In this document: one piece after another, positions 1 through 13,408 of the stretch | Position numbering within the stretch: the first letter of the stretch is position 1 | Layout of the letters: each line of letters starts with the position of its first letter | IMG/VR virus record: IMGVR_UViG_3300045988_109008 | DNA length: 22,001 bases | Strand: one strand, 5' to 3' | Origin: a virus | Taxonomy: Duplodnaviria; Heunggongvirae; Uroviricota; Caudoviricetes | Made by a program: the position numbers and the translations under genes | The notes under the pieces: model-generated | Told to the model about the DNA's origin: nothing | The model's database searches: none | Seen by the model: the letters and a program-made list of their open reading frames with translations, nothing else

Positions 1-420
1 TGCCATGATCGTATGTGCCTTTATGATTGGTCTGTAGATAGTGTAGAGCAGAAAACAAAAGGTGGAGTCAGAACAGGATGAAAGTCGGAGGATAAAAAGT
101 CAGTTCAAGTATGGAGGATTCAGTGGTTACCACCAGGAGCTTGCAATGGGGACAGCGAATACTAACGGCTGCCACCGATAAATTTCAAAAAAGAGCATAT
201 GCCTAATATTCAACCAAACAGTGGCATCTTAAATATACTATTCCAAATATATTAAAGCCCCCATGGAGTTACCCTGAAGGGCCTCAATGTCCGTAATTCC
301 TACTTATGTAGGAAATGTTGTACAGAACATTTATTATAATCCTATTCAATTATAATAATCATGCCATTATTATATTTAAACACTAGAGAGTGTCGTTGGT
401 ATTTAATGGGGGAAGGTGAG

Positions 421-738
421 ATGAAAAAGATAGCTGCTATATCATTAATTAGTATTTTTATTATGTCTGGTTGTGCTGTGCATAATGATGAGACAAGTAT
501 CGGTAAATTTGGTCTTGCATATAAAAGTAATATTCAGCGTAAACTCGATAACCAATACTACACCGAAGCCGAAGCTTCTTTAGCCAGGGGCAGAATATCT
601 GGTGCAGAAAATATAGTAAAAAATGATGCAGCCCATTTCTGTGTTACTCAGGGCAAAAAAATGCAGATAGTTGACCTGAAGACAGAAGGTGCAGGATTAC
701 ATGGCGTCGCTCGTCTGACATTCAAATGTGGAGAGTGA
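421..738 (+). CDS. Small putative lipoprotein (about 105 aa) in the host-side flank, function unknown
   Basis: ATG at 421 preceded by GGAAGGTGAG; N-terminus MKKIAAISLISIFIMSGC has a hydrophobic core ending in a lipobox-like IMSGC. The tool ORF starts at 361 but that start has no RBS. AT-rich, outside the att core. Confidence 0.5.
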   Translation: MKKIAAISLISIFIMSGCAVHNDETSIGKFGLAYKSNIQRKLDNQYYTEAEASLARGRISGAENIVKNDAAHFCVTQGKKMQIVDLKTEGAGLHGVARLTFKCGE

Positions 739-800
739 GAATATTTTTTGGTAAGCGTCAAACATGCGCGTTCTGGTTGTGCTTAGCCGGAACCTGTGCG

Positions 801-833
801 AGCACGATGCCGTTACGTGAAAGGCATCGTGCT
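801..833. repeat. Perfect 11-bp inverted repeat (agcacgatgcc ... ggcatcgtgct) with an 11-nt loop, in the host flank about 60 bp upstream of the att core
   Basis: Read directly from the sequence. No U-tract follows, so it is not a canonical intrinsic terminator. Confidence 0.6.
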
Positions 834-896
834 ATGAAGGGAGATTCTATCGATGTGGTCAATGGAAGACGGTGACCAGGGATAGGGCTTATGCAT

Positions 897-923
897 AAAA
901 AATAAGCCCGTGTAAGGGAGATT
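897..923. other. attL: P2-type attachment site core (attL), the left prophage boundary
   Basis: The sequence aaaaaataagcccgtgtaagggagatt matches the 27-bp P2 att core as I recall it. It sits about 80 bp beyond the 3' end of int, as in P2. Confidence 0.7.
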
Positions 924-1002
924 TAGGGTGTCACCAGTAGGGGCTTTCAACGGTACAATGCGGGGTTGAGCGGCATAAATTACCACTGAAAGCCCTTAAA
1001 CG

Positions 1003-3787: not shown

Positions 3788-4089
3788 TGTCCTGTTCTCA
3801 TTCAGTTGTATTACTGAATAACGCCTTAAAAATCGCTGTTATGAAAAATGGCGATTTATCTCTTATTCAACTTGGTCTTGATAAAGAAAAACGCGAAATA
3901 ACTGAGTCTGTTATCGCGATTTATCAGAACGAATTAAATCTCCTGTCTGATGTGGTCAATTTACTTGTTAAACGCGCTGTATTTCACAAGCAAATCTCCT
4001 CCGTGGATGAACTGACGAAATTAACGACAGAAATTGCCAGCTATTGCGCTGATGAATTTAAAAAACTTAACGACAAAAGGAGCTGGTAA
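3784..4089 (+). CDS. Small early protein, P2 orf81-like (101 aa)
   Basis: Translationally coupled (ATGA overlap) with the upstream gene; position as in P2. Confidence 0.6.
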
Positions 4090-4313
4090 TGCCGGACAAC
4101 GTAGATTTTATTCAGGAACAACAGGCTGAATTACTGGAGCGCCAGATTAACGCGGCAAGGGTAAAGCATTGCGGTGTTTCTGCGCTGGTTTGCGAAGAGT
4201 GTGACGCGCCAATACCTGCTGCCCGTCGTGCGGCTTATCCGTCAGCCACGCGTTGTGTTTCCTGTCAGTCAGTCTTTGAAGCAAAAAACAAACATTACCG
4301 GAGAATGGCATGA
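4089..4313 (+). CDS. TraR/DksA-family C4 zinc-finger protein, P2 orf82-like (74 aa)
   Basis: Sequence CEECDAPIPAARRAAYPSATRCVSCQ gives a CxxC-N17-CxxC zinc finger. Confidence 0.7.
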   Translation: MPDNVDFIQEQQAELLERQINAARVKHCGVSALVCEECDAPIPAARRAAYPSATRCVSCQSVFEAKNKHYRRMA

Positions 4314-4585
4314 GTATTCGTATCGAAATTGGCGAACGTTATGTCGTTACCAGTGACAGCTTTCAGTTTATTCTCCACGAGAAAAAGAGAGCGGAAAGCG
4401 GTAAAAACGCCGGTCAGGAATGGCTGGCGGTGGTTGGTTATTACCCGAAATTAAGCCAGCTCGTTTCCGGCCTGATGCATCACGATATTCTGACCGGAAG
4501 CGCAAAGTCTTTTGCTGATTTAAACGCGCAGGTTGAGCAACTCAGCAAGCGTTGTTCAGAGGCTTTTGGCTCATATGGCCGTTAA
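4310..4585 (+). CDS. Small early protein, P2 orf83-like (91 aa)
   Basis: Coupled ORF immediately upstream of A. Confidence 0.6.
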   Translation: MSIRIEIGERYVVTSDSFQFILHEKKRAESGKNAGQEWLAVVGYYPKLSQLVSGLMHHDILTGSAKSFADLNAQVEQLSKRCSEAFGSYGR

Positions 4586-6842
4586 AGCCTCTGGGCGTTT
4601 TGTCCCTCCGTCAGCATTTGCCGCAGGCACCGGTAAGGCGTTTACCGGTGCTTATGCATGGAACGCGCCACGCGAGGCTGTCGGGCGCGAAAGACCCCTT
4701 ACACGTGACGAGATGCGTCAGGTGCAAGGTGTTTTATCCACGATTAACCGCCTGCCTTACTTTTTGCGCTCGCTGTTTACTTCACGCTATGACTACATCC
4801 GGCGCAATAAAAGCCCGGTGCACGGGTTTTATTTCCTCACATCCACTTTTCAGCGTCGTTTATGGCCGCGCATTGAGCGCGTGAATCAGCGCCATGAAAT
4901 GAACACCGACGCGTCGTTGCTGTTTCTGGCAGAGCGTGACCACTATGCGCGCCTGCCGGGAATGAATGACAAGGAGCTGAAAAAGTTTGCCGCCCGTATC
5001 TCATCGCAGCTTTTCATGATGTATGAGGAACTCAGCGATGCCTGGGTGGATGCACATGGCGAAAAAGAATCGCTGTTTACGGATGAGGCGCAGGCTCACC
5101 TCTATGGTCATGTTGCTGGCGCTGCACGTGCTTTCAATATTTCCCCGCTTTACTGGAAAAAATACCGTAAAGGACAGATGACCACGAGGCAGGCATATTC
5201 TGCCATTGCCCGTCTGTTTAACGATGAGTGGTGGACTCATCAGCTCAAAGGCCAGCGTATGCGCTGGCATGAGGCGTTACTGATTGCTGTCGGGGAGGTG
5301 AATAAAGACCGTTCTCCTTATGCCAGTAAACATGCCATTCGTGATGTGCGTGCACGCCGCCAGGCAAATCTGGAATTTCTTAAATCGTGTGACCTTGAAA
5401 ACAGGGAAACCGGCGAGCGCATCGACCTTATCAGTAAGGTGATGGGCAGTATTTCTAATCCTGAAATTCGCCGGATGGAGCTGATGAACACCATTGCCGG
5501 TATTGAGCGTTACGCCGCCGCAGAGGGTGATGTGGGGATGTTTATCACGCTTACCGCGCCGTCAAAGTATCACCCGACACGTCAGGTCGGAAAAGGCGAA
5601 AGTAAAACCGTCCAGCTAAATCACGGCTGGAACGATGAGGCATTTAATCCAAAGGATGCGCAGCGTTATCTCTGCCATATCTGGAGCCTGATGCGCACGG
5701 CATTCAAGGATAATGATTTACAGGTCTACGGTTTGCGTGTCGTCGAGCCACACCACGACGGAACGCCGCACTGGCATATGATGCTTTTTTGTAATCCACG
5801 CCAGCGTAACCAGATTATCGAAATCATGCGTCGCTATGCGCTCAAAGAGGATGGCGACGAAAGAGGAGCCGCGCGAAACCGTTTTCAGGCAAAACACCTT
5901 AACCAGGGCGGTGCTGCGGGGTATATCGCGAAATACATCTCAAAAAACATCGATGGCTATGCACTGGATGGTCAGCTCGATAACGATACCGGCAGACCGC
6001 TGAAAGACACTGCTGCGGCTGTTACCGCATGGGCGTCAACGTGGCGCATCCCACAATTTAAAACGGTTGGTCTGCCGACAATGGGGGCTTACCGTGAACT
6101 ACGCAAATTGCCTCGCGGCGTCAGCATTGCTGATGAGTTTGACGAGCGCGTCGAGGCTGCACGCGCCGCCGCAGACAGTGGTGATTTTGCGTTGTATATC
6201 AGCGCGCAGGGTGGGGCAAATGTCCCGCGCGATTGTCAGACTGTCAGGGTCGCCCGTAGTCCGTCGGATGAAGTTAACGAGTACGAGGAAGAAGTCGAGA
6301 GAGTGGTCGGCATTTACGCGCCGCATCTCGGCGCGCGTCATATTCATATCACCAGAACGACGGACTGGCGCATTGTGCCGAAAGTTCCGGTCGTTGAGCC
6401 TTTGACTTTAAAAAGCGGCATCGCCGCGCCTCGGAGTCCTGTCAATAACTGTGGAAAGTTCACCGGCGGTGACGTTCCGGTTATGCACCCTACACCGTCT
6501 GAGCATGCCGCAGCGGTGTTAAATCTTGTTGATGATGGGGTTGTCGTATGGGGTGATCCTGAAGCCATGAGGGTGCTCAGGGATGTGCTAAAACATGACG
6601 TGCCGCAACCAAATCGACACCAGCGGAGCAGGGAACCACTAAAACAGCAGGAAATCGCGCTATCAGCCAGACTGACCAAAGCAGAGCGGGAGCAGATACC
6701 GCACATCCGTTATGACTTAGCACAGCATAATATCACACCGAAACGTTGGGAACTTGAGGCGCTGGCGCGAGGGGCGACTGTCATTTATGATGGAAAAACA
6801 TTTACATATCAGGTTGTAAATGAATGGGAAAATGAATTTTAA
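4575..6842 (+). CDS. A: Replication initiation protein A, rolling-circle HUH endonuclease
   Basis: HUH motif PHWHMMLF and paired tyrosines in GYIAKYISK. Start is assigned to the in-frame ATG at 4575 (MAVKASGRF...) rather than the tool start at 4533, giving about 755 aa. Confidence 0.9.
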   Translation: MAVKASGRFVPPSAFAAGTGKAFTGAYAWNAPREAVGRERPLTRDEMRQVQGVLSTINRLPYFLRSLFTSRYDYIRRNKSPVHGFYFLTSTFQRRLWPRIERVNQRHEMNTDASLLFLAERDHYARLPGMNDKELKKFAARISSQLFMMYEELSDAWVDAHGEKESLFTDEAQAHLYGHVAGAARAFNISPLYWKKYRKGQMTTRQAYSAIARLFNDEWWTHQLKGQRMRWHEALLIAVGEVNKDRSPYASKHAIRDVRARRQANLEFLKSCDLENRETGERIDLISKVMGSISNPEIRRMELMNTIAGIERYAAAEGDVGMFITLTAPSKYHPTRQVGKGESKTVQLNHGWNDEAFNPKDAQRYLCHIWSLMRTAFKDNDLQVYGLRVVEPHHDGTPHWHMMLFCNPRQRNQIIEIMRRYALKEDGDERGAARNRFQAKHLNQGGAAGYIAKYISKNIDGYALDGQLDNDTGRPLKDTAAAVTAWASTWRIPQFKTVGLPTMGAYRELRKLPRGVSIADEFDERVEAARAAADSGDFALYISAQGGANVPRDCQTVRVARSPSDEVNEYEEEVERVVGIYAPHLGARHIHITRTTDWRIVPKVPVVEPLTLKSGIAAPRSPVNNCGKFTGGDVPVMHPTPSEHAAAVLNLVDDGVVVWGDPEAMRVLRDVLKHDVPQPNRHQRSREPLKQQEIALSARLTKAEREQIPHIRYDLAQHNITPKRWELEALARGATVIYDGKTFTYQVVNEWENEF

Positions 6843-6933
6843 TGATATTAAGATACTAGGAACTAAAGAGGTATATACCCGCGATAATTGAAGGTGCTTG
6901 ATTTCGAAGATAATCAGGTTCATGTTAACAGCT

Positions 6934-7077
6934 ATGAATATTGAGTTGACCGTAGAACAAAAAATCGCCATCGAAGCATTGCAACGAAAAAGTCGTGATC
7001 TTCATATCCGCGATCGGGTCTGCTGCGTATTGCTTTCTTCTGAAAGCTGGTCAATCACAATGATTGCACCATCCTAA
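6934..7077 (+). pseudogene. Remnant of an IS630/Tc1-family transposase, N-terminal HTH only (47 codons then stop)
   Basis: Translation MNIELTVEQKIAIEALQRKSRDLHIRDRVCCVLLSSESWSITMIAPS resembles the N-terminal HTH of IS630-family transposases. A full transposase would be about 340 aa. Confidence 0.45.
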
Positions 7078-7216
7078 TATATCCATAAAACAACCGCTTT
7101 GTGACACCTGAATGACTGGACTGGTAGTAAAAAAGTAAACTTGAAACTGGTATTGAGTTTTAAGTGCGCGGGTTTTCGGTAGGGAGGTGACACACATTAA
7201 ATTAAAAGTTTCTGGT

Positions 7217-7247
7217 AAGGGGGCGGGGCCCCCTTTATAGGTTTTTT
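7217..7247. terminator. GC-rich hairpin (aaggggg-cgggg-ccccctt) followed by a T-run on the plus strand, between convergent genes
   Basis: 7-bp G/C stem at 7217-7223 and 7229-7235, then tataggtttttt. It lies immediately 3' of the minus-strand 976-aa ORF, so it may terminate transcription from either side. Confidence 0.5.
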
Positions 7248-10177
7248 CAGGAATGAATAACCTTTCTAACCTGGAAGCTATCATTATGAGATGGGATTAT
7301 TTCTCCTTTGAAAATAAGCCCTTCTCTCAAATACTGCCTGCTTTCAGAGGAAAATATTGTTACGTGGAAAAATATATCTACAGGGAGTTTGTCACAACTA
7401 CAGAATCCATATCCTCGTTGTGGAAAGTATCTTTTAATGATGCACTCCCCACTGATTGCTTCAACGTTTGGTGATTCTTTGCTATAAATATGACTAATCA
7501 CCATGCCTATCTCTGTTCTGGAAATGTCACACATCAAAGTGTCGCCATCAACGACGGAATCTATATTATATTGTTTTAATAAATTTTGAGAAATATCGAT
7601 GGGCCCATCAATGTCATTAACAATTAGATATCCAAGGCCACGCTCAACATCATAGCTATCTACAATTGCCCTAGCATGTTTTTTTACGATGCCTAGTTTA
7701 TAAATGTCGCCAAGAGTATTCTCTGGTGGTTCGCTTTCATCATATCTATTTTGTTTAAAGACTAATAGTCGATTGATTAACTCTTTTTGGCATTCATATT
7801 TTTCATGTGTTATCTCATTGCTAATATAAACAGAGTCTTCAGATATTAAATACTCTAGAAATAGATTTCTAATATTGTACATTTTAGAGATGTGATTGCC
7901 TTTGGAAGCATAAGTATCTTTTATTTTATTTGCGATAGAACTGTCGGTGATCGCTGTTGTTAATGCCATTTGATAGAAGTAAACGCTATTACGAGATGCG
8001 AGCTTTAAATGTGCTCTACCTTTATAAGAAATTGCTAATTTCTGATTTGATGAGAGTGTAGTTGATGACATATCATAGGGTTCTATTAATTTTGCCATAA
8101 TTAAGCTCTCTAAAGCTTTATCGACAGCTAGTTCTGTTGCTCCTAAAGCATCGAAATAACTGCTGATAGATTGTACGCTTAAATGTTTATCCTCAATGCT
8201 TTTTCCAGGCACTTGAATGGAGTTAAGTAAAGTAAGGATTCTTAACGCTTGCAATGGTGATTGTCTTACTTGACTATCAACTTGGAATATAGGATATATT
8301 TCTGGGATGTCACCATTTTTATAAACTTCATAATCACCGCGAATTAACGCGTCCATGAAGCGAGTGAAATTTATCGAAGGAAGTTCACCACTAATATAAG
8401 ATTTTATCAAATCCTCTATTTTAATTGCAGGGGATGTGATTATTCTTTTTGATAATAATAATGTGCTGCGTATATTATAGTTGGCAAGCTCACCAAGAGT
8501 TTGTGATGTGTAATCATGATTCACAAAAATATTTTCAATCACTTTAGAAAATTTATTTATATCTTCAATGGAAATTTTAATACCTTTTGATAAAAGATAG
8601 CTTTTCTTTTGTTCATTAGTATCTTTATTGTTAAGTTGTGATGTGATGAAGTTAATTCGCTTTCTGAATACTTCCCGTGGGGACGGAGTTGGTAGAAAAA
8701 ATGATTTCGATTGATAGATGCTAAATATATCTGTCTTGGAGAAAATCCAAGCTGATTTATCTGTTACGGGGAAAATAACAAGGCAGTGTTTAATGTTTTT
8801 TTTAATTGAATTGCTAAACTGGAAGACTTTTGTTTTAAAGTCAAGTGTGAATTCATCAGTGTTATCTACGACTATTATTGGAAGCATTTTTCTATTGCTT
8901 ACAACATTGTGAAGGATGCGTTTTAAATATCCCTCTCGATCATTTTCAACAGCTTCATCTAAATAACGTCCAAATTTTTCCTTGAACTCATCTTTACTTC
9001 TATTGTAAAGAGCTGCGTCCGCTCCTCTTGATTTTCTTTTATATTCATTGTGATAAAGTCCAAGGAGATCATTCCATTCAGGTACGCCGTCCTTGTAAAG
9101 CTGGGTCTCAAGGGTTTTTATTATTTCTTCAGTCATCCAATCTAGAACTGTATCTTCTCGCCCTGTAGCTTCTAAGCAGTTTATTTTAATAAGTAAGCAT
9201 CGTTCTCTAATCGTTTTATTAAGGGTACGACTGAAAAAACGGTCTAAAAAAGTCGACTTCCCAGAGCCAGTTGGTCCAACTATAAAAACGGATTGTTCTG
9301 ACTCTAGATTTATATCAGACTCAATATTTGACATTATTAAATCAGAAAGCTCATCTCCAACTTTATTTTTATTATGGTTTATATTTGACAAGACGCTAGT
9401 TGTTATTTTCTCAAGTGAATAGTCTGCAATTCTACTTTCATATGATTCAACAAAACATTCCATCATCATCTCGTCATCTCCCTCTAATCGAGAGAAGAAA
9501 CTAGAGAATACCCTTTCTAAATCATAAGCCATATCACTTTTTCTTGTTATTTTTATATCAGATCCAATGATTGGGGCTGTTAATTCATTATTTAACAATA
9601 AACGTTTGTTGTGAATATCATCAAATATAGTGTTATACAATCTCTTGTTAAATGCTTCTTTTGATAATAATTCATAGAACACGCTAAATGATTTTTCGAC
9701 TGCCTCGATACTAGGGAATACAATTGCCTCTTTACTCTTGAAGTTTTCACCAGGTATAAATGTTTTGAATATTACCCAACATAACCCATCAGTTAGAATA
9801 GAAAGAGGTATGCCATTTGGCGATGCGTAGCTAAATGCCTGGTTAATTCCTGTCTCGCATTTCTTTAAAGCAGAACCTGATATTTTTAAATGTCTTACAG
9901 TGTTTTTTTGAGCTGTTTCAACTTCTAAAATGCCGATTTTTTTGGCTTCGACAACAAAGGAGGGATGATCATCAGTGGAAAGAATGTAGTCAGAGAATCC
10001 ATTGTCATGAGCAGTTTCACAAGCAATATCAGAGTGCATCCATCCAAGCGTCTCTGTTAATATGCGAGTTATGATTTGAATTTTAGCATCTTCTTCTGAT
10101 TGGATTTTTGTGATGTTATGATTAACATCACTCATAATTTTTAAGAATTTTTTTTCGCTGGAATCTAAACTAGTCAT
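7247..10177 (-). CDS. Large multidomain protein (976 aa): PD-(D/E)xK nuclease fold, P-loop NTPase and C-terminal cold-shock domain; candidate anti-phage defence protein in the P2 tin/old hotspot
   Basis: N-terminal GFSDYILSTDDHPSFVVEAKK (aa 60-80, nt 9938-10000) resembles the HsdR N-terminal nuclease motif. Walker A VGPTGSGKST is at nt 9251-9280, and a Walker B-like IIVVDNTDE is at aa 434-442. The C-terminus RGYGFCSCD...DIFFHVTIF has RNP1/RNP2-like cold-shock motifs (nt about 7250-7450). The gene is AT-rich against a GC-rich phage backbone and sits between A and cos. Confidence 0.8.
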   Translation of the reverse strand: MTSLDSSEKKFLKIMSDVNHNITKIQSEEDAKIQIITRILTETLGWMHSDIACETAHDNGFSDYILSTDDHPSFVVEAKKIGILEVETAQKNTVRHLKISGSALKKCETGINQAFSYASPNGIPLSILTDGLCWVIFKTFIPGENFKSKEAIVFPSIEAVEKSFSVFYELLSKEAFNKRLYNTIFDDIHNKRLLLNNELTAPIIGSDIKITRKSDMAYDLERVFSSFFSRLEGDDEMMMECFVESYESRIADYSLEKITTSVLSNINHNKNKVGDELSDLIMSNIESDINLESEQSVFIVGPTGSGKSTFLDRFFSRTLNKTIRERCLLIKINCLEATGREDTVLDWMTEEIIKTLETQLYKDGVPEWNDLLGLYHNEYKRKSRGADAALYNRSKDEFKEKFGRYLDEAVENDREGYLKRILHNVVSNRKMLPIIVVDNTDEFTLDFKTKVFQFSNSIKKNIKHCLVIFPVTDKSAWIFSKTDIFSIYQSKSFFLPTPSPREVFRKRINFITSQLNNKDTNEQKKSYLLSKGIKISIEDINKFSKVIENIFVNHDYTSQTLGELANYNIRSTLLLSKRIITSPAIKIEDLIKSYISGELPSINFTRFMDALIRGDYEVYKNGDIPEIYPIFQVDSQVRQSPLQALRILTLLNSIQVPGKSIEDKHLSVQSISSYFDALGATELAVDKALESLIMAKLIEPYDMSSTTLSSNQKLAISYKGRAHLKLASRNSVYFYQMALTTAITDSSIANKIKDTYASKGNHISKMYNIRNLFLEYLISEDSVYISNEITHEKYECQKELINRLLVFKQNRYDESEPPENTLGDIYKLGIVKKHARAIVDSYDVERGLGYLIVNDIDGPIDISQNLLKQYNIDSVVDGDTLMCDISRTEIGMVISHIYSKESPNVEAISGECIIKRYFPQRGYGFCSCDKLPVDIFFHVTIFSSESRQYLREGLIFKGEIIPSHNDSFQVRKVIHS

Positions 10178-10232
10178 TTCTTATCATCCAAAGTGATGTA
10201 AGTAAGTTACGGATAAATTCTTATGTATTGAG

Positions 10233-10260
10233 ATTGTAAGGTAATTAGCCATGAGTTCAA
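10233..10260 (-). promoter_or_regulatory. Candidate sigma70 promoter for the 976-aa ORF
   Basis: On the minus strand: TTGAAC (complement of 10255-10260), 16-nt spacer, TACAAT (complement of 10233-10238), about 55 nt upstream of the start codon. Confidence 0.3.
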
Positions 10261-10389
10261 GTAGTTAGTTTGCATATCCTTGCGTGAAAATGCATCTGTC
10301 GTCTGAAATTGGTTTGCTGACACAAACCCAGCCGCCGCTGGGCAGGGTTTGAAGCGCACCTGCATTAAAACCGCCCCGTGAAGCGGGCG

Positions 10390-10408
10390 GGCGAGGCGGG
10401 GAAAGCAC
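10390..10408. other. cos: cos cohesive-end site (19 nt)
   Basis: The sequence ggcgaggcggggaaagcac matches the P2 cohesive-end sequence as I recall it. It lies between the hotspot and Q, as in P2. Confidence 0.6.
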
Positions 10409-10440
10409 TGCGCGCTGGCGGTGGTGCTGATTTTATTTTT

Positions 10441-10480
10441 TCAGCGTCTCAGCGTCTCAGCGTCTCAGCGTCTCAGCGCG
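10441..10480. repeat. Tandem octamer repeat (TCAGCGTC, four perfect copies plus one degenerate) in the cos-proximal region
   Basis: Read directly: tcagcgtc tcagcgtc tcagcgtc tcagcgtc tcagcgcg. Confidence 0.8.
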
Positions 10481-10601
10481 TCGTGACGGCGTTTGGATTG
10501 TGCGCCGGGGCGTTGGTGTGTCTGCGGGGTGTTTTGTGCGGTGGTGAGCGTGTGAGGGCGTGATGACGGGGTGTAAAAAAGCCGCCCGCAGGCGGCGATG
10601 T

Positions 10602-11636
10602 TCAGCCGTTGTCAGTGTCCAGTGAGTAGTTTTTAAAGCGGATGACCTCCTGACCGAGCCAGCCGTTTATCTCGCAGATCCTGTCCTGTAACGGGATAAG
10701 TTCATTGCGGACAAAGACCTTTGCCACTTTCTCAATATCACCCAGCGACCCGACGTTCTCCGGCTTGCCGCCCATCAACTGAAAGGGGATGCGGTGCGCG
10801 TCCAGCAGGTCAGCGGCGCTGGCTTTTTTGATATTAAAAAAATCGTCCTTCGTTGCCACTTCACTGAGCGGGATAATTTTAATGCCGTCAGCTTTCCCCT
10901 GCGGGGCATAGAGAAACAGGTTTTTAAAGTTGTTGCGGCCTTTCGACTTCACCATGTTTTCGCGAAGCATTTCGATATCGTTGCGATCCTGCACGGCATC
11001 AGTGACGTACATGATATATCCGGCATGAGCGCCGTTTTCGTAATACTTGCGGCGGAACAGCGTGGCCGACTCATTCAGCCAGGCAGAGTTAAGGGCGCTG
11101 AGATATTCCGGCAGACCGTACAGCTCCTGATTAATATCCGGCTCCAGCAGGTGAAACACGGAGCCGGGCGCGAAAGGTGTCGGCTCGTTGAAGGACGGCA
11201 CCCACCAGTAAACATCCTCCTCCACGCCACGGCGGGTATATTTTGCCGGTGAGGTTTCCAGTCTGATGACCTTACCGGTGGTGCTGTAACGCTTTTCCAG
11301 AAACGCATTACCGAATACCAGAAAATCCAGCACAAAGCGGCTGAAATCCTGCTGAGAAAGCCACGGGTGTGGGATAAACGTTGAGGCCAGAATATTACGT
11401 TTGACGTAAATCGGTGAGCTGTGATGCACGGCAGCACGCAGGCTTTTTGCCAGACCGGTAAAGCTGACCGGTGGCTCATACCATCTGCCGTTACTGATGC
11501 ACTCGACGTAATCCAGAATGTCACGGCGGTCGAGTACCGGCACCGGCTCACCAAAGGTGAATGCCTCCATTTTCGGGGCGCTGGCGGTCATTTTTTTTGC
11601 CGCAGGTTGCGGTGTTTTCCCTTTTTTCTTGCTCAT
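10602..11636 (-). CDS. Q: Portal protein (344 aa)
   Basis: Length and N-terminus MSKKKGKTPQPAAKK match P2 gpQ; first gene after cos, leftward. Confidence 0.9.
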   Translation of the reverse strand: MSKKKGKTPQPAAKKMTASAPKMEAFTFGEPVPVLDRRDILDYVECISNGRWYEPPVSFTGLAKSLRAAVHHSSPIYVKRNILASTFIPHPWLSQQDFSRFVLDFLVFGNAFLEKRYSTTGKVIRLETSPAKYTRRGVEEDVYWWVPSFNEPTPFAPGSVFHLLEPDINQELYGLPEYLSALNSAWLNESATLFRRKYYENGAHAGYIMYVTDAVQDRNDIEMLRENMVKSKGRNNFKNLFLYAPQGKADGIKIIPLSEVATKDDFFNIKKASAADLLDAHRIPFQLMGGKPENVGSLGDIEKVAKVFVRNELIPLQDRICEINGWLGQEVIRFKNYSLDTDNG

Positions 11637-13408
11637 CAGTAAAACTCCAGAATGGTGGATGTCAGCGGGGTGCTGATACCGGCGGTGAGTGGCTCATTTA
11701 ACAGGGCGTGCATGGTCGCCCAGGCGAGGTCGGCGTGGCTGGCTTCCTCGCTACGGCTGGCCTCATAGGTGGCGCTGCGTCCGCTGCTGGTCATGGTCTT
11801 GCGGATAGCCATAAACGAGCTGGTGATGTCGGTGGCGCTGACGTCATATTCCAGACAGCCACGGCGGATGACGTCTTTTGCCTTGAGCACCATTGCGGTT
11901 TTCATTTCCGGCGTGTAGCGGATATCGCGCGCGGCGGGATAGAACGAGCGCACGAGCTGGAACACGCCGACACCGAGGCCGGTGGCATCAATTCCGATGT
12001 ATTCGACGTTGTATTTTTCGGTGAGTTTGCGGATGGATTCCGCCTGAGTGGCAAAGTCCATGCCTTTCCACTGGTGACGCTCAAGTATTCTGAATTTACC
12101 TCCGGCCACCACCGGCGGTGCCAGCACCACGCATCCGGCGCTGTCGCCACGGTGTGACGGGTCGTAACCAATCCATACCGGGCGGGAGCCGAACGGATTG
12201 GCGGCAAACGGCGCATAGTCTTCCCATTCTTCCAGCGTGTCGACCATGCAGCGTTGCAGCTCCTCGAACGGGAACACCGACGCCTTGTCGTCAACAAATT
12301 CACACATGAACAGGTTTTTAAAATCGTCGGCGCTGTTTTCACGTTTGAGCTGCTCAATGTCGAACAGCGTGCAGCCACCTTTCAGGGCGTCCTCAATGGT
12401 GACAATCTGCCGCCACTGGCCGTCCGCACAGAGAAGCCCCCCGGCAAGGGCGTTATGACTGACGTCGATTTCCACGCGTTCGGCGGCGCTGGCGCGTCCC
12501 CGGTTGAACAGTTCACCCGACCAGAATGGGTAGGCGTCGTGCGCCAGCGTGGACGGGGTGGAGAAATAGGTCGAGCGCAGGTGGCTCTGTGAGGCCATAC
12601 CTGATGCCACCTTTCGCAGTACCTGAAAATTCGGGATCCAGAAAATCTCGTCGACGTACAGGTCGCCGTTATGGCTCTGTGCGGTGTTGGAGTTGGTGCC
12701 GAGAAAAATCAGTTTTGCGCCGTTATTGCCCAGGACAATCGGGTCACCGGTCAGGTCAACGTCAACCAGCCGGGCAAAGGCGATGATGTATTCGCGGAAC
12801 ACATACGCCTGCGTTTTACTGGCCGACAGAAAAATCTGGTTATGACCGGTTTTCAGGGCGCGCAGCAGCGCCTCGCGGGAAAAATAAAACGTCGCGCCAA
12901 TCTGGCGGGATTTCAGGATATCGCGGATGCGGTGCTCAAGCCCGGCGCGATACCAGTGCAACTGATAGTCGAAAGACTGCTCAAAGAAAATCTGCTCCAG
13001 CTTTTCGATGGCCTCGTCACTGAAAAAATTCTTTTTCGGTTTGCGCCGCCCGCCTTTGTTGCGGTTAGCGACGTTCGGATTAAGGTCTGCCTCGTTGCCG
13101 GTCTGGCTGTAGCGGTTGACCCGTGCCAGTCGTTCAATCTGGCGTCCCAGCAGGTCAATTTCCTTGAAGTCACTGCCGGTTTTCTGCGGTTTGATGATGA
13201 GCTGGGTCAGCCGCGCTTCCAGGCTCATTTCGACACGGCTGATGGGGGCAACGCTGTCCCAGCCGTCGCGCTGTTTCCAGCTCTGCACCGTCGGGCGTTT
13301 CATCTGCAACATGGCGGCAATCTGCGGCACGGAAAACCCCTGCCAGTACAGCAGCGCCGCCTGACGACGCGGGTCGTGTAAAAGAGTGGTGTCTGTGGTG
13401 ATGGTCAT
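11636..13408 (-). CDS. P: Terminase large (ATPase) subunit (590 aa)
   Basis: Start assigned to MTITTDTTLLHDPRRQ with GAGG 5 nt upstream (tool ORF starts 10 codons earlier). Overlaps the Q start by 1 nt. Confidence 0.9.
   Translation of the reverse strand: MTITTDTTLLHDPRRQAALLYWQGFSVPQIAAMLQMKRPTVQSWKQRDGWDSVAPISRVEMSLEARLTQLIIKPQKTGSDFKEIDLLGRQIERLARVNRYSQTGNEADLNPNVANRNKGGRRKPKKNFFSDEAIEKLEQIFFEQSFDYQLHWYRAGLEHRIRDILKSRQIGATFYFSREALLRALKTGHNQIFLSASKTQAYVFREYIIAFARLVDVDLTGDPIVLGNNGAKLIFLGTNSNTAQSHNGDLYVDEIFWIPNFQVLRKVASGMASQSHLRSTYFSTPSTLAHDAYPFWSGELFNRGRASAAERVEIDVSHNALAGGLLCADGQWRQIVTIEDALKGGCTLFDIEQLKRENSADDFKNLFMCEFVDDKASVFPFEELQRCMVDTLEEWEDYAPFAANPFGSRPVWIGYDPSHRGDSAGCVVLAPPVVAGGKFRILERHQWKGMDFATQAESIRKLTEKYNVEYIGIDATGLGVGVFQLVRSFYPAARDIRYTPEMKTAMVLKAKDVIRRGCLEYDVSATDITSSFMAIRKTMTSSGRSATYEASRSEEASHADLAWATMHALLNEPLTAGISTPLTSTILEFY

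What the first reader, a model, noticed from the sequence alone, without database searches (positions are those of the whole stretch)
6843..10389. The A-to-cos cargo slot lacks tin/old and holds compositionally foreign DNA
The gene order on both sides is strictly P2-like, but the segment between A and cos is visibly AT-rich and contains no Tin or Old homologue (Old would have an ABC-ATPase plus TOPRIM). It holds only the 976-aa ORF and an IS remnant. This slot is a known hotspot for exchangeable anti-phage cargo in P2-like prophages.
Basis: partly seen in the sequence, partly recalled or inferred. Interest (0 to 1): 0.6.

Follow-up and report, generated by a model that had tools for sequence, protein, structure and literature searches.

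The report
P2 prophage hotspot with nuclease-ATPase cargo
In this E. coli P2-like prophage, the known swap-in slot next to the packaging site has lost the classic tin/old exclusion genes and instead carries one foreign, AT-rich gene for an untested nuclease–ATPase–cold-shock-domain protein that is probably a phage-defence gene.

Summary
P2 homology (95.3%) stops at window 6827 and resumes at 10361, 29 nt from cos (10390-10408). The 3.5-kb module 6828-10360 replaces P2's orf91-tin-old. Tin, Old and Orf91 have no homologue anywhere in the window. Cargo GC is 0.35 against 0.54 for the backbone, with no overlap between 500-nt windows. The ORF's GC3 is 0.28 against 0.54-0.72 for the phage genes.

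The module holds a 5' remnant of an IS630-family element (6871-7137) and one intact 976-aa gene (7247-10177, minus strand) with a promoter-like site of its own. The protein, WP_032286573, consists of:
- an HsdR-N-type PD-(D/E)xK nuclease
- an ORC/Cdc6-like AAA+ ATPase
- a helical region
- two cold-shock domains

All catalytic motifs are invariant in 58 homologues. The family has 580 representatives at E<=1e-30. In eight sampled contexts it is a lone, AT-rich gene, six of them in prophages, a satellite-like island, an ICE or an integrase island. It matches no PADLOC defence family, and I found no paper that tests it. Rousset 2022 lists it only as "AAA_22".

The hotspot itself is already known. 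The cargo is an untested, probably new single-gene defence candidate. The proposed mechanism (nucleic-acid sensing, then ATP-driven assembly, then nuclease activation) is inferred, not shown.

The parts
4575..6842 (+). P2 gene A (replication endonuclease), the left anchor of the slot
   Evidence: Pfam Phage_GPA E=2e-124. 94% aa identity to P2 gpA over residues 1-751. RefSeq start as in L001. P2 DNA homology ends at 6827, so the last 5 codons belong to the swapped module.
6828..10360 (.). Cargo module (3,533 bp) that replaces P2 30287-33545 (orf91-tin-old)
   Evidence: blastn against P2: 95.3% identity at 4000-6827 and at 10361-11915, with nothing in between. GC 0.346. Present in only 7 of 5,426 complete E. 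coli genomes.
6871..7137 (+). 5' remnant of an IS630-family insertion sequence (left end plus the first ~68 transposase codons; the rest is deleted)
   Evidence: tblastn of the 47-aa peptide against plasmids: IS630-family transposases, up to 79% identity, E=3e-16. 72% nt identity over 250 nt to L010 1438-1686. Transposase residues 1-68 of 342 are matched, E=3e-20.
7217..7235 (.). GC-rich hairpin (AAGGGGGC-GGG-GCCCCCTT) 12 nt downstream of the ORF stop codon. It is terminator-like, and the U-tract is better on the + strand.
   Evidence: Terminator scan: 8 pairs, 6 of them G-C. Sequence read.
7247..10177 (-). 976-aa cargo gene (WP_032286573.1, 'AAA family ATPase'), a candidate single-gene defence protein
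   Evidence: Intact ORF. Identical to cluster P0001, which has 110 member sequences. AF2 model with pLDDT 79.9 and pTM 0.68.
9608..10177 (-). Residues 1-190: HsdR-N-type PD-(D/E)xK nuclease domain (D63, E77-x-K79, Q113-xxx-Y117)
8678..9325 (-). Residues ~285-500: ORC/Cdc6-like AAA+ ATPase core (Walker A G301-PTGSGKS-T309, Walker B D438..D441-E442, conserved R505/R507 after strand 5)
7703..8677 (-). Residues ~501-825: helical region (lid plus helical bundles with a small beta-hairpin at 698-716). No recognisable repeats. This is the conserved C-terminal part of the core family.
   Evidence: AF2 secondary structure. The CSD-less relatives of 800-870 aa match the profile through about position 810.
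7475..7693 (-). Residues 829-901: cold-shock domain 1. It is degenerate in this copy (RGLGYL / IDISQ in place of the family's KGFGF / FxH).
   Evidence: Family profile against PDB sequences: YB-1 and CspA, E=6e-9, at profile positions 823-899. Beta-barrel in the model. Motif comparison.
7253..7456 (-). Residues 908-975: cold-shock domain 2, with canonical RNP1/RNP2-like motifs (RGYGF / IFFH)
   Evidence: Pfam CSD E=1.5e-3 at residues 915-953, below the gathering score. Weak profile hits to UNR and a CSD-containing Cmr6. Motifs conserved family-wide. Beta-barrel in the model.
10233..10260 (-). Promoter-like site TTGAAC-16-TACAAT inside the cargo, about 56 nt upstream of the ORF's ATG. It would drive leftward transcription, as for P2's old-tin mRNA.
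   Evidence: Consensus scan, 9 of 12 matches. This is a pattern match only. The P2 old-tin transcript starts are annotated at the equivalent place.
10390..10408 (+). cos cohesive-end core GGCGAGGCGGGGAAAGCAC, the right anchor of the slot. P2 homology starts 29 nt to its left.
   Evidence: Exact match to P2 cosL/cosR.
10602..11636 (-). P2 gene Q (portal)
   Evidence: Pfam Phage_portal E=2.6e-14. RefSeq annotation. 95.3% nt identity to P2.

Best explanation
Window 6828-10360 is the cos-proximal accessory slot of a P2-like prophage. This is the gpA-gpQ hotspot, called the 'tin-old' region in P2. Here the orf91-tin-old module of P2 has been replaced by non-homologous exchange with a horizontally acquired AT-rich module. 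That module is a decayed IS630 end plus one self-contained gene, transcribed leftward from a promoter-like site next to cos.

The gene encodes a 976-aa protein with an effector-switch-sensor layout:
- an N-terminal HsdR-type PD-(D/E)xK nuclease (the effector)
- an ORC/Cdc6-STAND-like AAA+ ATPase (the switch)
- a helical region and two C-terminal cold-shock domains (nucleic-acid-binding sensor or targeting modules)

I propose it is a single-gene superinfection-exclusion or anti-phage defence protein made by the lysogen. In this model the helical/CSD end binds a nucleic-acid cue produced during infection, most likely single-stranded DNA or RNA. ATP-dependent assembly of the AAA+ module then licenses the nuclease to cut phage and/or host nucleic acid.

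Shown here: the swap and its breakpoints; the foreign composition; the absence of tin/old; the domain identities; the conservation of catalytic residues; the lone-gene, MGE-borne distribution.

Inferred: the defence function, the nature of the trigger, the oligomerisation step, and the nuclease substrate.
For: Swap and breakpoints. Composition and codon usage.

A known defence hotspot at exactly this locus, and this protein listed there as 'AAA_22'.

AAA+ domain: AAA_22; Cdc6/ORC, BrxC, TnsC, NLR and RdrA neighbours; Walker A and B and the post-strand-5 arginines invariant.

CSDs: profile hits to CspA and YB-1 at 6e-9; RNP-type motifs conserved.

Distribution: always a lone gene with no conserved partner. 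It sits in a P2-like prophage, a lambdoid prophage, a prophage end, an integrase/AlpA/Rep island, an ICE tra operon, and an integrase island next to a SIR2 gene. It is 8-19 GC points below its flanks in 7 of 7 hosts. There are 13 viral contigs with relatives and a PHROG family of unknown function. The family has 580 representatives at E<=1e-30. The gene is intact and identical across a 110-member cluster.
Against: There is no experimental evidence of defence for this protein or any homologue. I found no paper that names or tests it.

It has no significant hit to any PADLOC v2 defence model, only P-loop-level matches.

The slot also carries non-defence cargo in other prophages, such as partition systems and cdt toxin (Rousset 2022), so location alone is not proof.

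In this E. coli copy CSD1 has lost its aromatic binding motifs. A large sub-family lacks CSDs altogether, so the CSDs cannot be the universal sensor.

This copy's own HSDR_N and CSD Pfam scores are below the gathering thresholds.

The promoter is only a consensus match. No effector-swapped variants, which are a hallmark of Avs/NLR-type families, were seen among the best 150 relatives.
Confidence: 0.68

Rival explanations
1. The protein is a constitutive, restriction-like enzyme. It would be Type IV-like or an HsdR-like solitary nuclease. The NTPase would drive binding or processing of foreign or modified DNA and the nuclease would cut it directly. There would be no infection-triggered switch and no abortive infection.
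For: The N-terminal domain is of the Type I HsdR nuclease type, including the QxxxY motif. It is coupled to an NTPase, as in McrBC and Type I enzymes. P2 hotspots do carry restriction enzymes. A Rhizobium homologue sits next to an HNH_2 gene.
Against: The NTPase is an ORC/Cdc6-type AAA+ fold. It is not an SF2 translocase (ResIII hit only E=0.085, at the P-loop) and not a McrB-type GTPase. There is no methyltransferase or specificity partner in any of the 8 contexts. No known modified-DNA reader domain was detected. CSDs bind single-stranded nucleic acid, which is not the usual substrate of restriction enzymes.
Confidence: 0.15
2. The protein targets RNA. The CSDs would recruit it to phage or host transcripts, and the PD-(D/E)xK domain would act as an RNase, shutting down translation. 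This resembles what has been predicted for the CSD-bearing CoCoNuT systems.
For: Tandem CSDs with RNP-type motifs are classic ssRNA/ssDNA binders. CSD-like domains in CoCoNuT Type IV systems were predicted to indicate RNA targeting (PMC11090510). Another P2-slot cargo pairs an S1 RNA-binding OB-fold with HSDR_N and a KAP NTPase.
Against: HsdR-N-type domains are DNA nucleases in all characterised cases (established knowledge of Type I R-M enzymes). ORC/Cdc6, BrxC and TnsC relatives act on dsDNA. CSD-less relatives keep the same nuclease.
Confidence: 0.12
3. The gene is not a defence gene. It would serve the mobile element itself, for example in replication initiation or control, maintenance, or host takeover, by using an ORC/Cdc6-like DNA-binding ATPase. 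Alternatively it is simply a neutral passenger.
For: The closest structural neighbours are replication initiators. In Plesiomonas the homologue lies directly after a lambda-P-like replication gene. About a quarter of P2 slots carry plasmid-partition cargo rather than defence genes. There is no defence-database hit.
Against: The same gene rides on unrelated replicons: P2-like and lambdoid prophages, an ICE, and small islands. It is rare and patchy (7 of 5,426 E. coli genomes), which does not fit a replication or maintenance role tied to one element. A strictly conserved nuclease active site plus an ATPase argues against a neutral passenger. P2 replicates with A and B alone (P2 annotation).
Confidence: 0.1

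Closest known systems
P2 tin-old region / gpA-gpQ defence hotspot (Odegrip 2006; Rousset et al. 2022; Vassallo et al. 2022)
   Same: Same locus, between the replication gene A and cos/portal Q. Same leftward orientation, with a promoter near cos. Same AT-rich character (P2 tin GC 0.33, old GC 0.35). Same pattern of rare, exchangeable cargo between conserved flanks. This exact protein is listed in Rousset's Table S5A.
   Different: The cargo is unrelated to Tin, Old or Orf91. It is not among the systems that these papers cloned and validated.
P2 Old / OLD-family nucleases (also GajA, PARIS AriA/AriB)
   Same: An ATPase-plus-nuclease protein encoded in the same slot of a P2-type prophage, presumably serving the lysogen.
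   Different: Old is an ABC ATPase plus a TOPRIM nuclease. This protein is an ORC/Cdc6-like AAA+ ATPase plus a PD-(D/E)xK nuclease, with the nuclease at the N-terminus and CSDs at the C-terminus. There is no sequence similarity (E>1).
Avs / bacterial NLR-like (STAND) defence proteins, including Rousset's TIR-NLR and its nuclease-headed variants
BrxC (BREX) and RdrA (RADAR): ORC/Cdc6-like AAA+ ATPases of defence systems
   Different: Those are components of multi-gene systems (PglX/PglZ/BrxB, or the RdrB deaminase) and carry no fused nuclease. This gene stands alone in all 8 contexts examined.
Type I restriction enzyme HsdR
   Same: The N-terminal nuclease domain is of the HsdR type, with D..ExK plus QxxxY motifs.
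   Different: There is no SF2 helicase/translocase motor, and there are no HsdM or HsdS partners.
'KAP_NTPase + S1/HSDR_N' two-gene cargo of other P2 slots (Rousset 2022, Table S5A)
   Same: The same three functional parts (an HSDR_N nuclease, an OB-fold single-strand-binding domain, and a P-loop NTPase) at the same prophage locus.
   Different: The parts are split over two genes. The NTPase is a KAP type rather than ORC/Cdc6-like, and the OB-fold is S1 rather than CSD. I did not find it among the validated systems either, and homology between the two nuclease domains was not tested.

Membership tests
P2 gpA-gpQ (tin-old) hotspot cargo | Lies between replication gene A and cos/portal gene Q of a P2-like prophage | tested here: met
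   A at 4575-6842, cos at 10390-10408, Q at 10602-11636. 95.3% identity to P2 on both sides.
P2 gpA-gpQ (tin-old) hotspot cargo | Content varies between otherwise related prophages (conserved flanks, rare cargo) | tested here: met
   Flanks match in 2,153 of 5,426 complete E. coli genomes, and the cargo is in only 7. Listed as an A-Q locus ('AAA_22', WP_032286573) in Rousset 2022 Table S5A.
P2 gpA-gpQ (tin-old) hotspot cargo | Confers anti-phage protection | not testable with these tools
   This needs a plaque or efficiency-of-plating assay. No published test was found.
Old (OLD-family nuclease) | ABC-type ATPase plus a C-terminal TOPRIM nuclease, with sequence similarity to P2 Old | tested here: not met
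   blastp of Old against the ORF: best E=1.5. tblastn of Old against the window: best E=1.1. ABC_tran matches only the Walker A residues 289-314 (E=0.0045, below cut-off). The fold is ORC/Cdc6 AAA+.
Tin | Sequence similarity to P2 Tin | tested here: not met
   Best tblastn E=0.15, located in an unrelated late gene. blastp against the ORF gives E=4.5.
HsdR-N / PD-(D/E)xK nuclease domain | Catalytic D...(D/E)xK triad plus the QxxxY motif | tested here: met
   D63, E77-A-K79 and Q113-AFS-Y117 are invariant in 58/58 homologues.
HsdR-N / PD-(D/E)xK nuclease domain | Profile and fold match to HsdR N-terminal domains | tested here: met
HsdR-N / PD-(D/E)xK nuclease domain | Nuclease activity | not testable with these tools
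   Requires biochemistry.
Type I restriction enzyme (HsdR holoenzyme) | SF2 helicase/translocase motor and HsdM/HsdS partners | tested here: not met
   There are no helicase domains (ResIII E=0.085, P-loop only). No methyltransferase or specificity gene is in the slot or in 7 other contexts.
ORC/Cdc6-clade AAA+ ATPase | Walker A, Walker B and an AAA+ fold closest to the initiator clade | tested here: met
ORC/Cdc6-clade AAA+ ATPase | Arginine finger after strand 5, a helical insert after strand 2, and a winged helix after the lid | tested here: inconclusive
   R505 and R507 are conserved right after strand 491-494. The model has an ~85-residue helical insert between strands 327-333 and 432-438. 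Assignment of a winged helix (hairpin 698-716) was not verified.
Avs / NLR-like STAND defence proteins | STAND NTPase (NACHT, NB-ARC or nSTAND) by profile | tested here: not met
Avs / NLR-like STAND defence proteins | C-terminal repeat sensor (TPR, LRR or WD40) that recognises a phage protein | tested here: not met
   No repeat families appear in Pfam at E<=0.1. The C-terminus is a helical region plus two CSD barrels.
Avs / NLR-like STAND defence proteins | Tripartite effector-NTPase-sensor layout in one polypeptide | tested here: met
   Nuclease at residues 1-190, AAA+ at 285-500, helical region plus CSDs at 501-976.
Cold-shock domain (CSD) | OB-fold barrel with RNP1 (K/R-G-F/Y-G-F) and RNP2 (F-F/V-H) motifs | tested here: met
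   CSD2 has RGYGF and IFFH. In this copy CSD1 is degenerate (RGLGYL / IDISQ), but it is canonical family-wide. Profile hits to CspA and YB-1 at E=6e-9. Two barrels in the model. This copy's own Pfam CSD score is 18.8 bits against a cut-off of 27.
BREX (BrxC) | Co-occurrence with PglX, PglZ, BrxA and BrxB | tested here: not met
   It is a single gene in the slot and in all other contexts.
Any PADLOC v2.0.0 defence family | Significant full-length match to a defence-protein HMM | tested here: not met
   The best hit is mad8 at E=3.2e-5 over the P-loop region only. Ten shorter relatives gave none, or the same weak hit. Databases newer than 2023 (for example current DefenseFinder) could not be queried.
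IS630-family insertion sequence | Complete DDE transposase (~340 aa) between terminal inverted repeats | tested here: not met
   Only transposase residues 1-68 and ~63 nt of upstream IS sequence are present. It is therefore a remnant, not a functional IS.

The most novel reading that the evidence does not exclude
The family would be a previously unrecognised class of single-protein immune sensor, a nucleic-acid-sensing analogue of NLR/Avs proteins. Tandem cold-shock domains, together with the helical region, would detect single-stranded phage DNA or RNA (replication or packaging intermediates, or transcripts). They would switch an ORC/Cdc6-type AAA+ module into an oligomer that activates an HsdR-type nuclease. 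The CSD-less and one-CSD relatives would then represent sensor-swapped versions of the same chassis.
Probability: 0.2. Interest if true: 0.7.

Novelty: new variant of a known kind. Interest (0 to 1): 0.42.

Why it matters
The slot phenomenon itself adds nothing new. It is the textbook P2 defence hotspot, and this locus is already catalogued.

The value lies in the cargo. It is a widespread family (about 580 clusters at 50% identity) of MGE-borne proteins that fuse a restriction-type nuclease, a replication-initiator-type ATPase and cold-shock domains. No defence database I could query recognises it, and I found no paper that has tested it. If it defends against phages, it would add a new single-gene system. 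It could also be an example of immune sensing through cold-shock domains, that is, recognition of single-stranded nucleic acid rather than of phage proteins.

The gene is small (2.9 kb) and self-contained, and it comes from E. coli, so the test is cheap.

Tried and rejected
- Old/Tin/Orf91 homology was rejected (tblastn and blastp).
- Known defence families: PADLOC, for the protein and for 10 distant relatives, gave only P-loop-level hits. NCBIfam gave only sub-threshold P-loop and orc1/cdc6 hits.
- PHROGs returned a family of unknown function.
- The sequence profile of the N-terminal domain against PDB sequences found nothing meaningful. The fold search was needed to link it to HsdR.
- The BFVD viral fold search gave only generic AAA+ and RFC matches.
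- AFDB50 was not available on the machine.
I replaced them with sub-alignments and samples.
- The DNA search of the 408-bp spacer in E. coli genomes found only the same 7 prophages, so there is no intact parental IS in E. coli at the DNA level. The IS630 identity came only from a protein-level search of plasmids.
- Literature searches for the accession, for CSD-bearing defence proteins, for 'HsdR-like' PICI systems and for DefensePredictor hits found no paper that names or tests the protein. The supplements of two of those papers were not held. I recalled from memory a DefenseFinder entry called 'FS_HsdR_like', but I could not check it.
- I looked for N-terminal effector swapping in relatives, which would support an Avs-like model. 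None was seen among the best 150 representatives.
- The small overlapping ORF at 7051-7284 (minus strand, 77 aa) had no family hits, and I treat it as non-coding. The ORF at 6717-6971 (minus strand, 84 aa) was not scanned against any family library. I treat it as non-coding as well, only because it overlaps the 3' end of A and the IS630 remnant on the opposite strand.

Full report
**What the window is.** The window is an E. coli P2-like prophage integrated next to yegR. The gene order is integrase, C repressor, cox, early genes, A, then cos, Q, P, O, N, M, L and the lysis and tail genes (ORF list; RefSeq annotation of a 99%-identical sister prophage). Gene A (4575-6842) scores 2e-124 against Pfam Phage_GPA. 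The gene on the other side of the slot is a portal protein. The 19-nt P2 cohesive-end sequence GGCGAGGCGGGGAAAGCAC lies at 10390-10408.

**Checking the observation.** The sliding-window profile shows GC of 0.30-0.37 from about 7250 to 10250, against 0.50-0.60 on both sides. In 500-nt windows the cargo averages 0.342 (maximum 0.388) and the phage backbone 0.542 (minimum 0.428). The two distributions do not overlap (Mann-Whitney p=7e-9). At codon level the 976-aa ORF has GC3 of 0.28, against 0.54-0.72 for A, Q, P, O, N and M. Its synonymous codon usage correlates with the pooled phage genes at r=0.13, where the phage genes themselves give 0.70-0.92.

A direct blastn against the P2 reference gives 95.3% identity over window 4000-6827 and again over 10361-11915, with nothing in between. 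The exchanged module is therefore 6828-10360 (3,533 bp). It replaces P2 30287-33545, which holds orf91, tin and old. The left breakpoint falls inside the last 15 nt of A, and the right one falls 29 nt before cos.

tblastn of P2 Tin, Old and Orf91 against the entire window finds nothing better than E=0.15, and blastp against the big ORF finds nothing better than E=1.5. One qualification applies: P2's own tin and old have GC of 0.33 and 0.35, so AT-richness is typical of cargo in this slot rather than special to this prophage.

**The IS remnant.** At the DNA level the 408-bp stretch between A and the ORF matches only the same seven E. coli prophages. At the protein level, however, the small ORF at 6937-7077 matches the N-terminus of IS630-family transposases on enterobacterial plasmids (up to 79% identity, E=3e-16). 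When aligned to a complete copy from a Citrobacter braakii plasmid, window 6871-7119 corresponds to the IS left end plus the first codons (72% nt identity). Only residues 1-68 of the 342-residue transposase are present.

**How common the cargo is.** The flanks match in 2,153 of 5,426 complete E. coli genomes, but the cargo is present in only 7, all at about 99% identity. It is in no deposited phage genome. Two IMG/VR viral contigs carry the identical protein. Rousset et al. 2022 define precisely this gpA-gpQ, cos-proximal locus as a hotspot of anti-phage systems, with 1,650 arrangements in 18,150 loci (PMC9122126). Their Table S5A lists this very accession, WP_032286573, as a locus annotated 'AAA_22'. 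Vassallo et al. 2022 independently found four new defence systems at this position (PMC9519451).

**Domain anatomy of the cargo gene.** The gene (7247-10177, minus strand) is intact. It has a promoter-like site inside the module (TTGAAC-16-TACAAT, 10260->10233) and a GC-rich hairpin just past its stop codon (7217-7235). This is the same leftward layout as P2's old-tin transcript. RefSeq calls it only 'AAA family ATPase'.

Pfam finds AAA_22 (E=2.9e-7) and a weak CSD hit. Homologues add HSDR_N. An AlphaFold2 model built on 58 homologues (pLDDT 79.9, pTM 0.68) shows five parts:
- an N-terminal alpha/beta domain (residues 1-190)
- a P-loop core (~285-500)
- a helical region (~501-825)
- a beta-barrel at 829-901
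- a second beta-barrel at 908-975

The following residues are invariant in all 58 aligned homologues:
- PD-(D/E)xK residues D63 and E77-x-K79
- the HsdR-type Q113-xxx-Y117 motif
- Walker A (G301...G306-K307-[ST]-T309)
- Walker B (D438...D441-E442)

R507, just after strand 5, is also invariant, and R505 is nearly so.

The CSD RNP-type motifs are conserved across the family (KGFGF/FxH and RGYGF/AFFH). In this E. coli copy CSD1 is degenerate (RGLGYL/IDISQ), while CSD2 is canonical.

**The family and where it lives.** An exhaustive profile search of 1.84 billion representatives finds 580 proteins at E<=1e-30 and 1,807 at E<=1e-10. The closest relative outside E. coli is only 59% identical. There are two main architectures. 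The ~975-aa form has two CSDs. An ~800-870-aa form matches only through about position 810 and lacks them. At least one relative has a single CSD. The CSDs are therefore an add-on to a conserved nuclease-ATPase-helical chassis.

In eight independent genomic contexts the gene stands alone, with no conserved neighbour:
- a P2-like prophage (this window)
- a lambdoid prophage just after a lambda-P-like gene (Plesiomonas)
- the integrase-proximal end of a prophage (Yersinia)
- an integrase/AlpA/Rep/resolvase island (Citrobacter)
- the tra operon of an ICE, on the opposite strand (Serratia)
- an integrase island beside a SIR2 gene (Methylomonas)
- one-gene islets (V. cholerae and Rhizobium)

 In all seven non-E. 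coli hosts the gene is 8-19 GC points below its surroundings. PHROGs holds the family as 'unknown function'.

**Known or not.** PADLOC v2 (2023) gives only P-loop-level hits (mad8, E=3e-5) for this protein and for ten distant relatives. NCBIfam gives nothing above threshold. Full-text searches found no paper that names or tests it. I searched for the accession, for CSD-containing defence proteins, for ORC/Cdc6-type defence ATPases, for PICI 'HsdR-like' systems, and in the DefensePredictor and modularity screens. The CoCoNuT Type IV systems are the only defence context in which I found CSD-like domains discussed (PMC11090510), and they are built on McrB GTPases, not on this chassis. I could not query defence databases newer than 2023.

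**Most likely mechanism.** Shown: the domain identities, the intact catalytic motifs, and the lone-gene, MGE-borne, AT-rich, patchy distribution at a validated defence hotspot. Inferred: that the protein is a lysogen-expressed exclusion or defence factor built as effector (HsdR-type nuclease), switch (ORC/Cdc6-STAND-type AAA+) and sensor or targeting end (helical region plus CSDs).

By analogy with initiator-clade and STAND ATPases, ATP binding and a ligand would drive assembly, using the conserved post-strand-5 arginines as fingers. Assembly would bring the nuclease domains into an active arrangement. CSDs bind single-stranded DNA or RNA, so the cue or the substrate is plausibly a single-stranded nucleic acid made during infection. 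I put about 0.68 on 'exchanged hotspot cargo encoding a nuclease-ATPase defence protein', and only about 0.2-0.3 on the specific trigger and assembly model.

**Rivals.**
- A constitutive restriction-like enzyme (0.15). The HsdR-type nuclease fits, but there is no translocase, no methylase partner and no modified-DNA reader domain.
- An RNA-targeting enzyme recruited by the CSDs (0.12). CSD-less relatives and the DNA-acting structural neighbours argue against it.
- A non-defence function for the element itself (0.10). The ORC-like fold and the non-defence cargo known from this slot fit, but the gene rides on unrelated replicons and keeps a nuclease active site.

**Membership.** The locus is a member of the P2 gpA-gpQ hotspot class (position and variability tested and met; the defence phenotype is not testable here). 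It is not an Old or Tin homologue, not a Type I HsdR holoenzyme, not a BREX component, not a profile-level STAND/Avs protein, and not a member of any PADLOC family. It works most like an Avs/NLR-type tripartite protein, but it fails the defining STAND-profile and repeat-sensor tests.

**Verdict.** The slot phenomenon is already known and this locus is already catalogued. The cargo protein is an uncharacterised, fairly widespread architecture, best described as a new variant of the nuclease-NTPase single-gene defence kind, pending an inexpensive experimental test. Interest is moderate (0.42).

Noticed in passing
window 10441-10478: A perfect tandem 8-mer TCAGCGTC, x4.8 copies, lies 33 nt to the right of the cos core. 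P2 and the 99%-identical sister prophage (L001) have only 1.8 copies at the same place. This window therefore carries a private 24-bp (3-unit) expansion in the cos-Q spacer, which explains the 4051 against 4027 nt length difference.
   Followed up: partly
window 6828-6842: The left recombination breakpoint lies inside gene A. The last 5 codons of A, and its stop codon, belong to the swapped module and differ from P2 (P2 gpA aligns only through residue 751 of 761). The mechanical ORF list starts A at a TTG at 4533, whereas RefSeq starts it at 4575.
   Followed up: partly
Rousset 2022 Table S5A; not in this window: [quoted passage not shown] That is the same three functional parts (HsdR-type nuclease, OB-fold single-strand binder, P-loop NTPase) split over separate genes. 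It may be an independent solution to the same task. Homology of the nuclease domains was not tested.
   Followed up: no
P0135-P0268; L023 5992-8463: A large sister sub-family of ~800-870 aa keeps the nuclease, ATPase and helical chassis but lacks both CSDs. P0159 (894 aa) has one CSD. One CSD-less member sits on a 121-kb viral contig.
   Followed up: partly
L017 9071-9826 and 10001-13015 (Methylomonas sp. 11b): The homologue lies 175 nt downstream of a 251-aa SIR2-domain gene on the same strand, beside two integrases and RadC. This may be a two-gene variant or a defence islet. The pairing was not seen in the other contexts.
   Followed up: no
L015/L016 10001-12928 (Serratia nevei): The homologue is inserted on the opposite strand in the middle of an ICE conjugation operon, between the DUF1525/TraU and TraC genes. 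This is an unusual cargo position.
   Followed up: no
L006-L008 (Citrobacter freundii and a metagenome): The homologue is the only large cargo of a ~10-kb integrase/AlpA/Rep(REP_ORF2-G2P)/resolvase element integrated next to focA-mlaA. The element looks like a phage satellite or a small integrative element, and it has different left flanks in three samples.
   Followed up: no
window 7217-7235: A strong GC hairpin (8 pairs, 6 of them G-C) lies between the IS630 stub and the ORF stop codon. The T-tract is better on the + strand, so it may terminate read-through from the A operon at least as much as it terminates the cargo gene.
   Followed up: no
window 10371-10390, minus strand: A terminator-like hairpin CCGCCC-GCTTCACG-GGGCGG followed by TTTT lies within the 29 conserved nucleotides left of cos and touches the first base of the cos core. 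It lies within the stretch that aligns to P2 at 95.3%, and it might be part of the terminase recognition region rather than a terminator.
   Followed up: no
window 1-1000: The left end (GC 0.37-0.45) is chromosomal. The 125-aa ORF at 361-738 probably corresponds to yegR, as in the sister genome (not verified). The prophage integrase follows at 1003-2016. The att site was not mapped.
   Followed up: no
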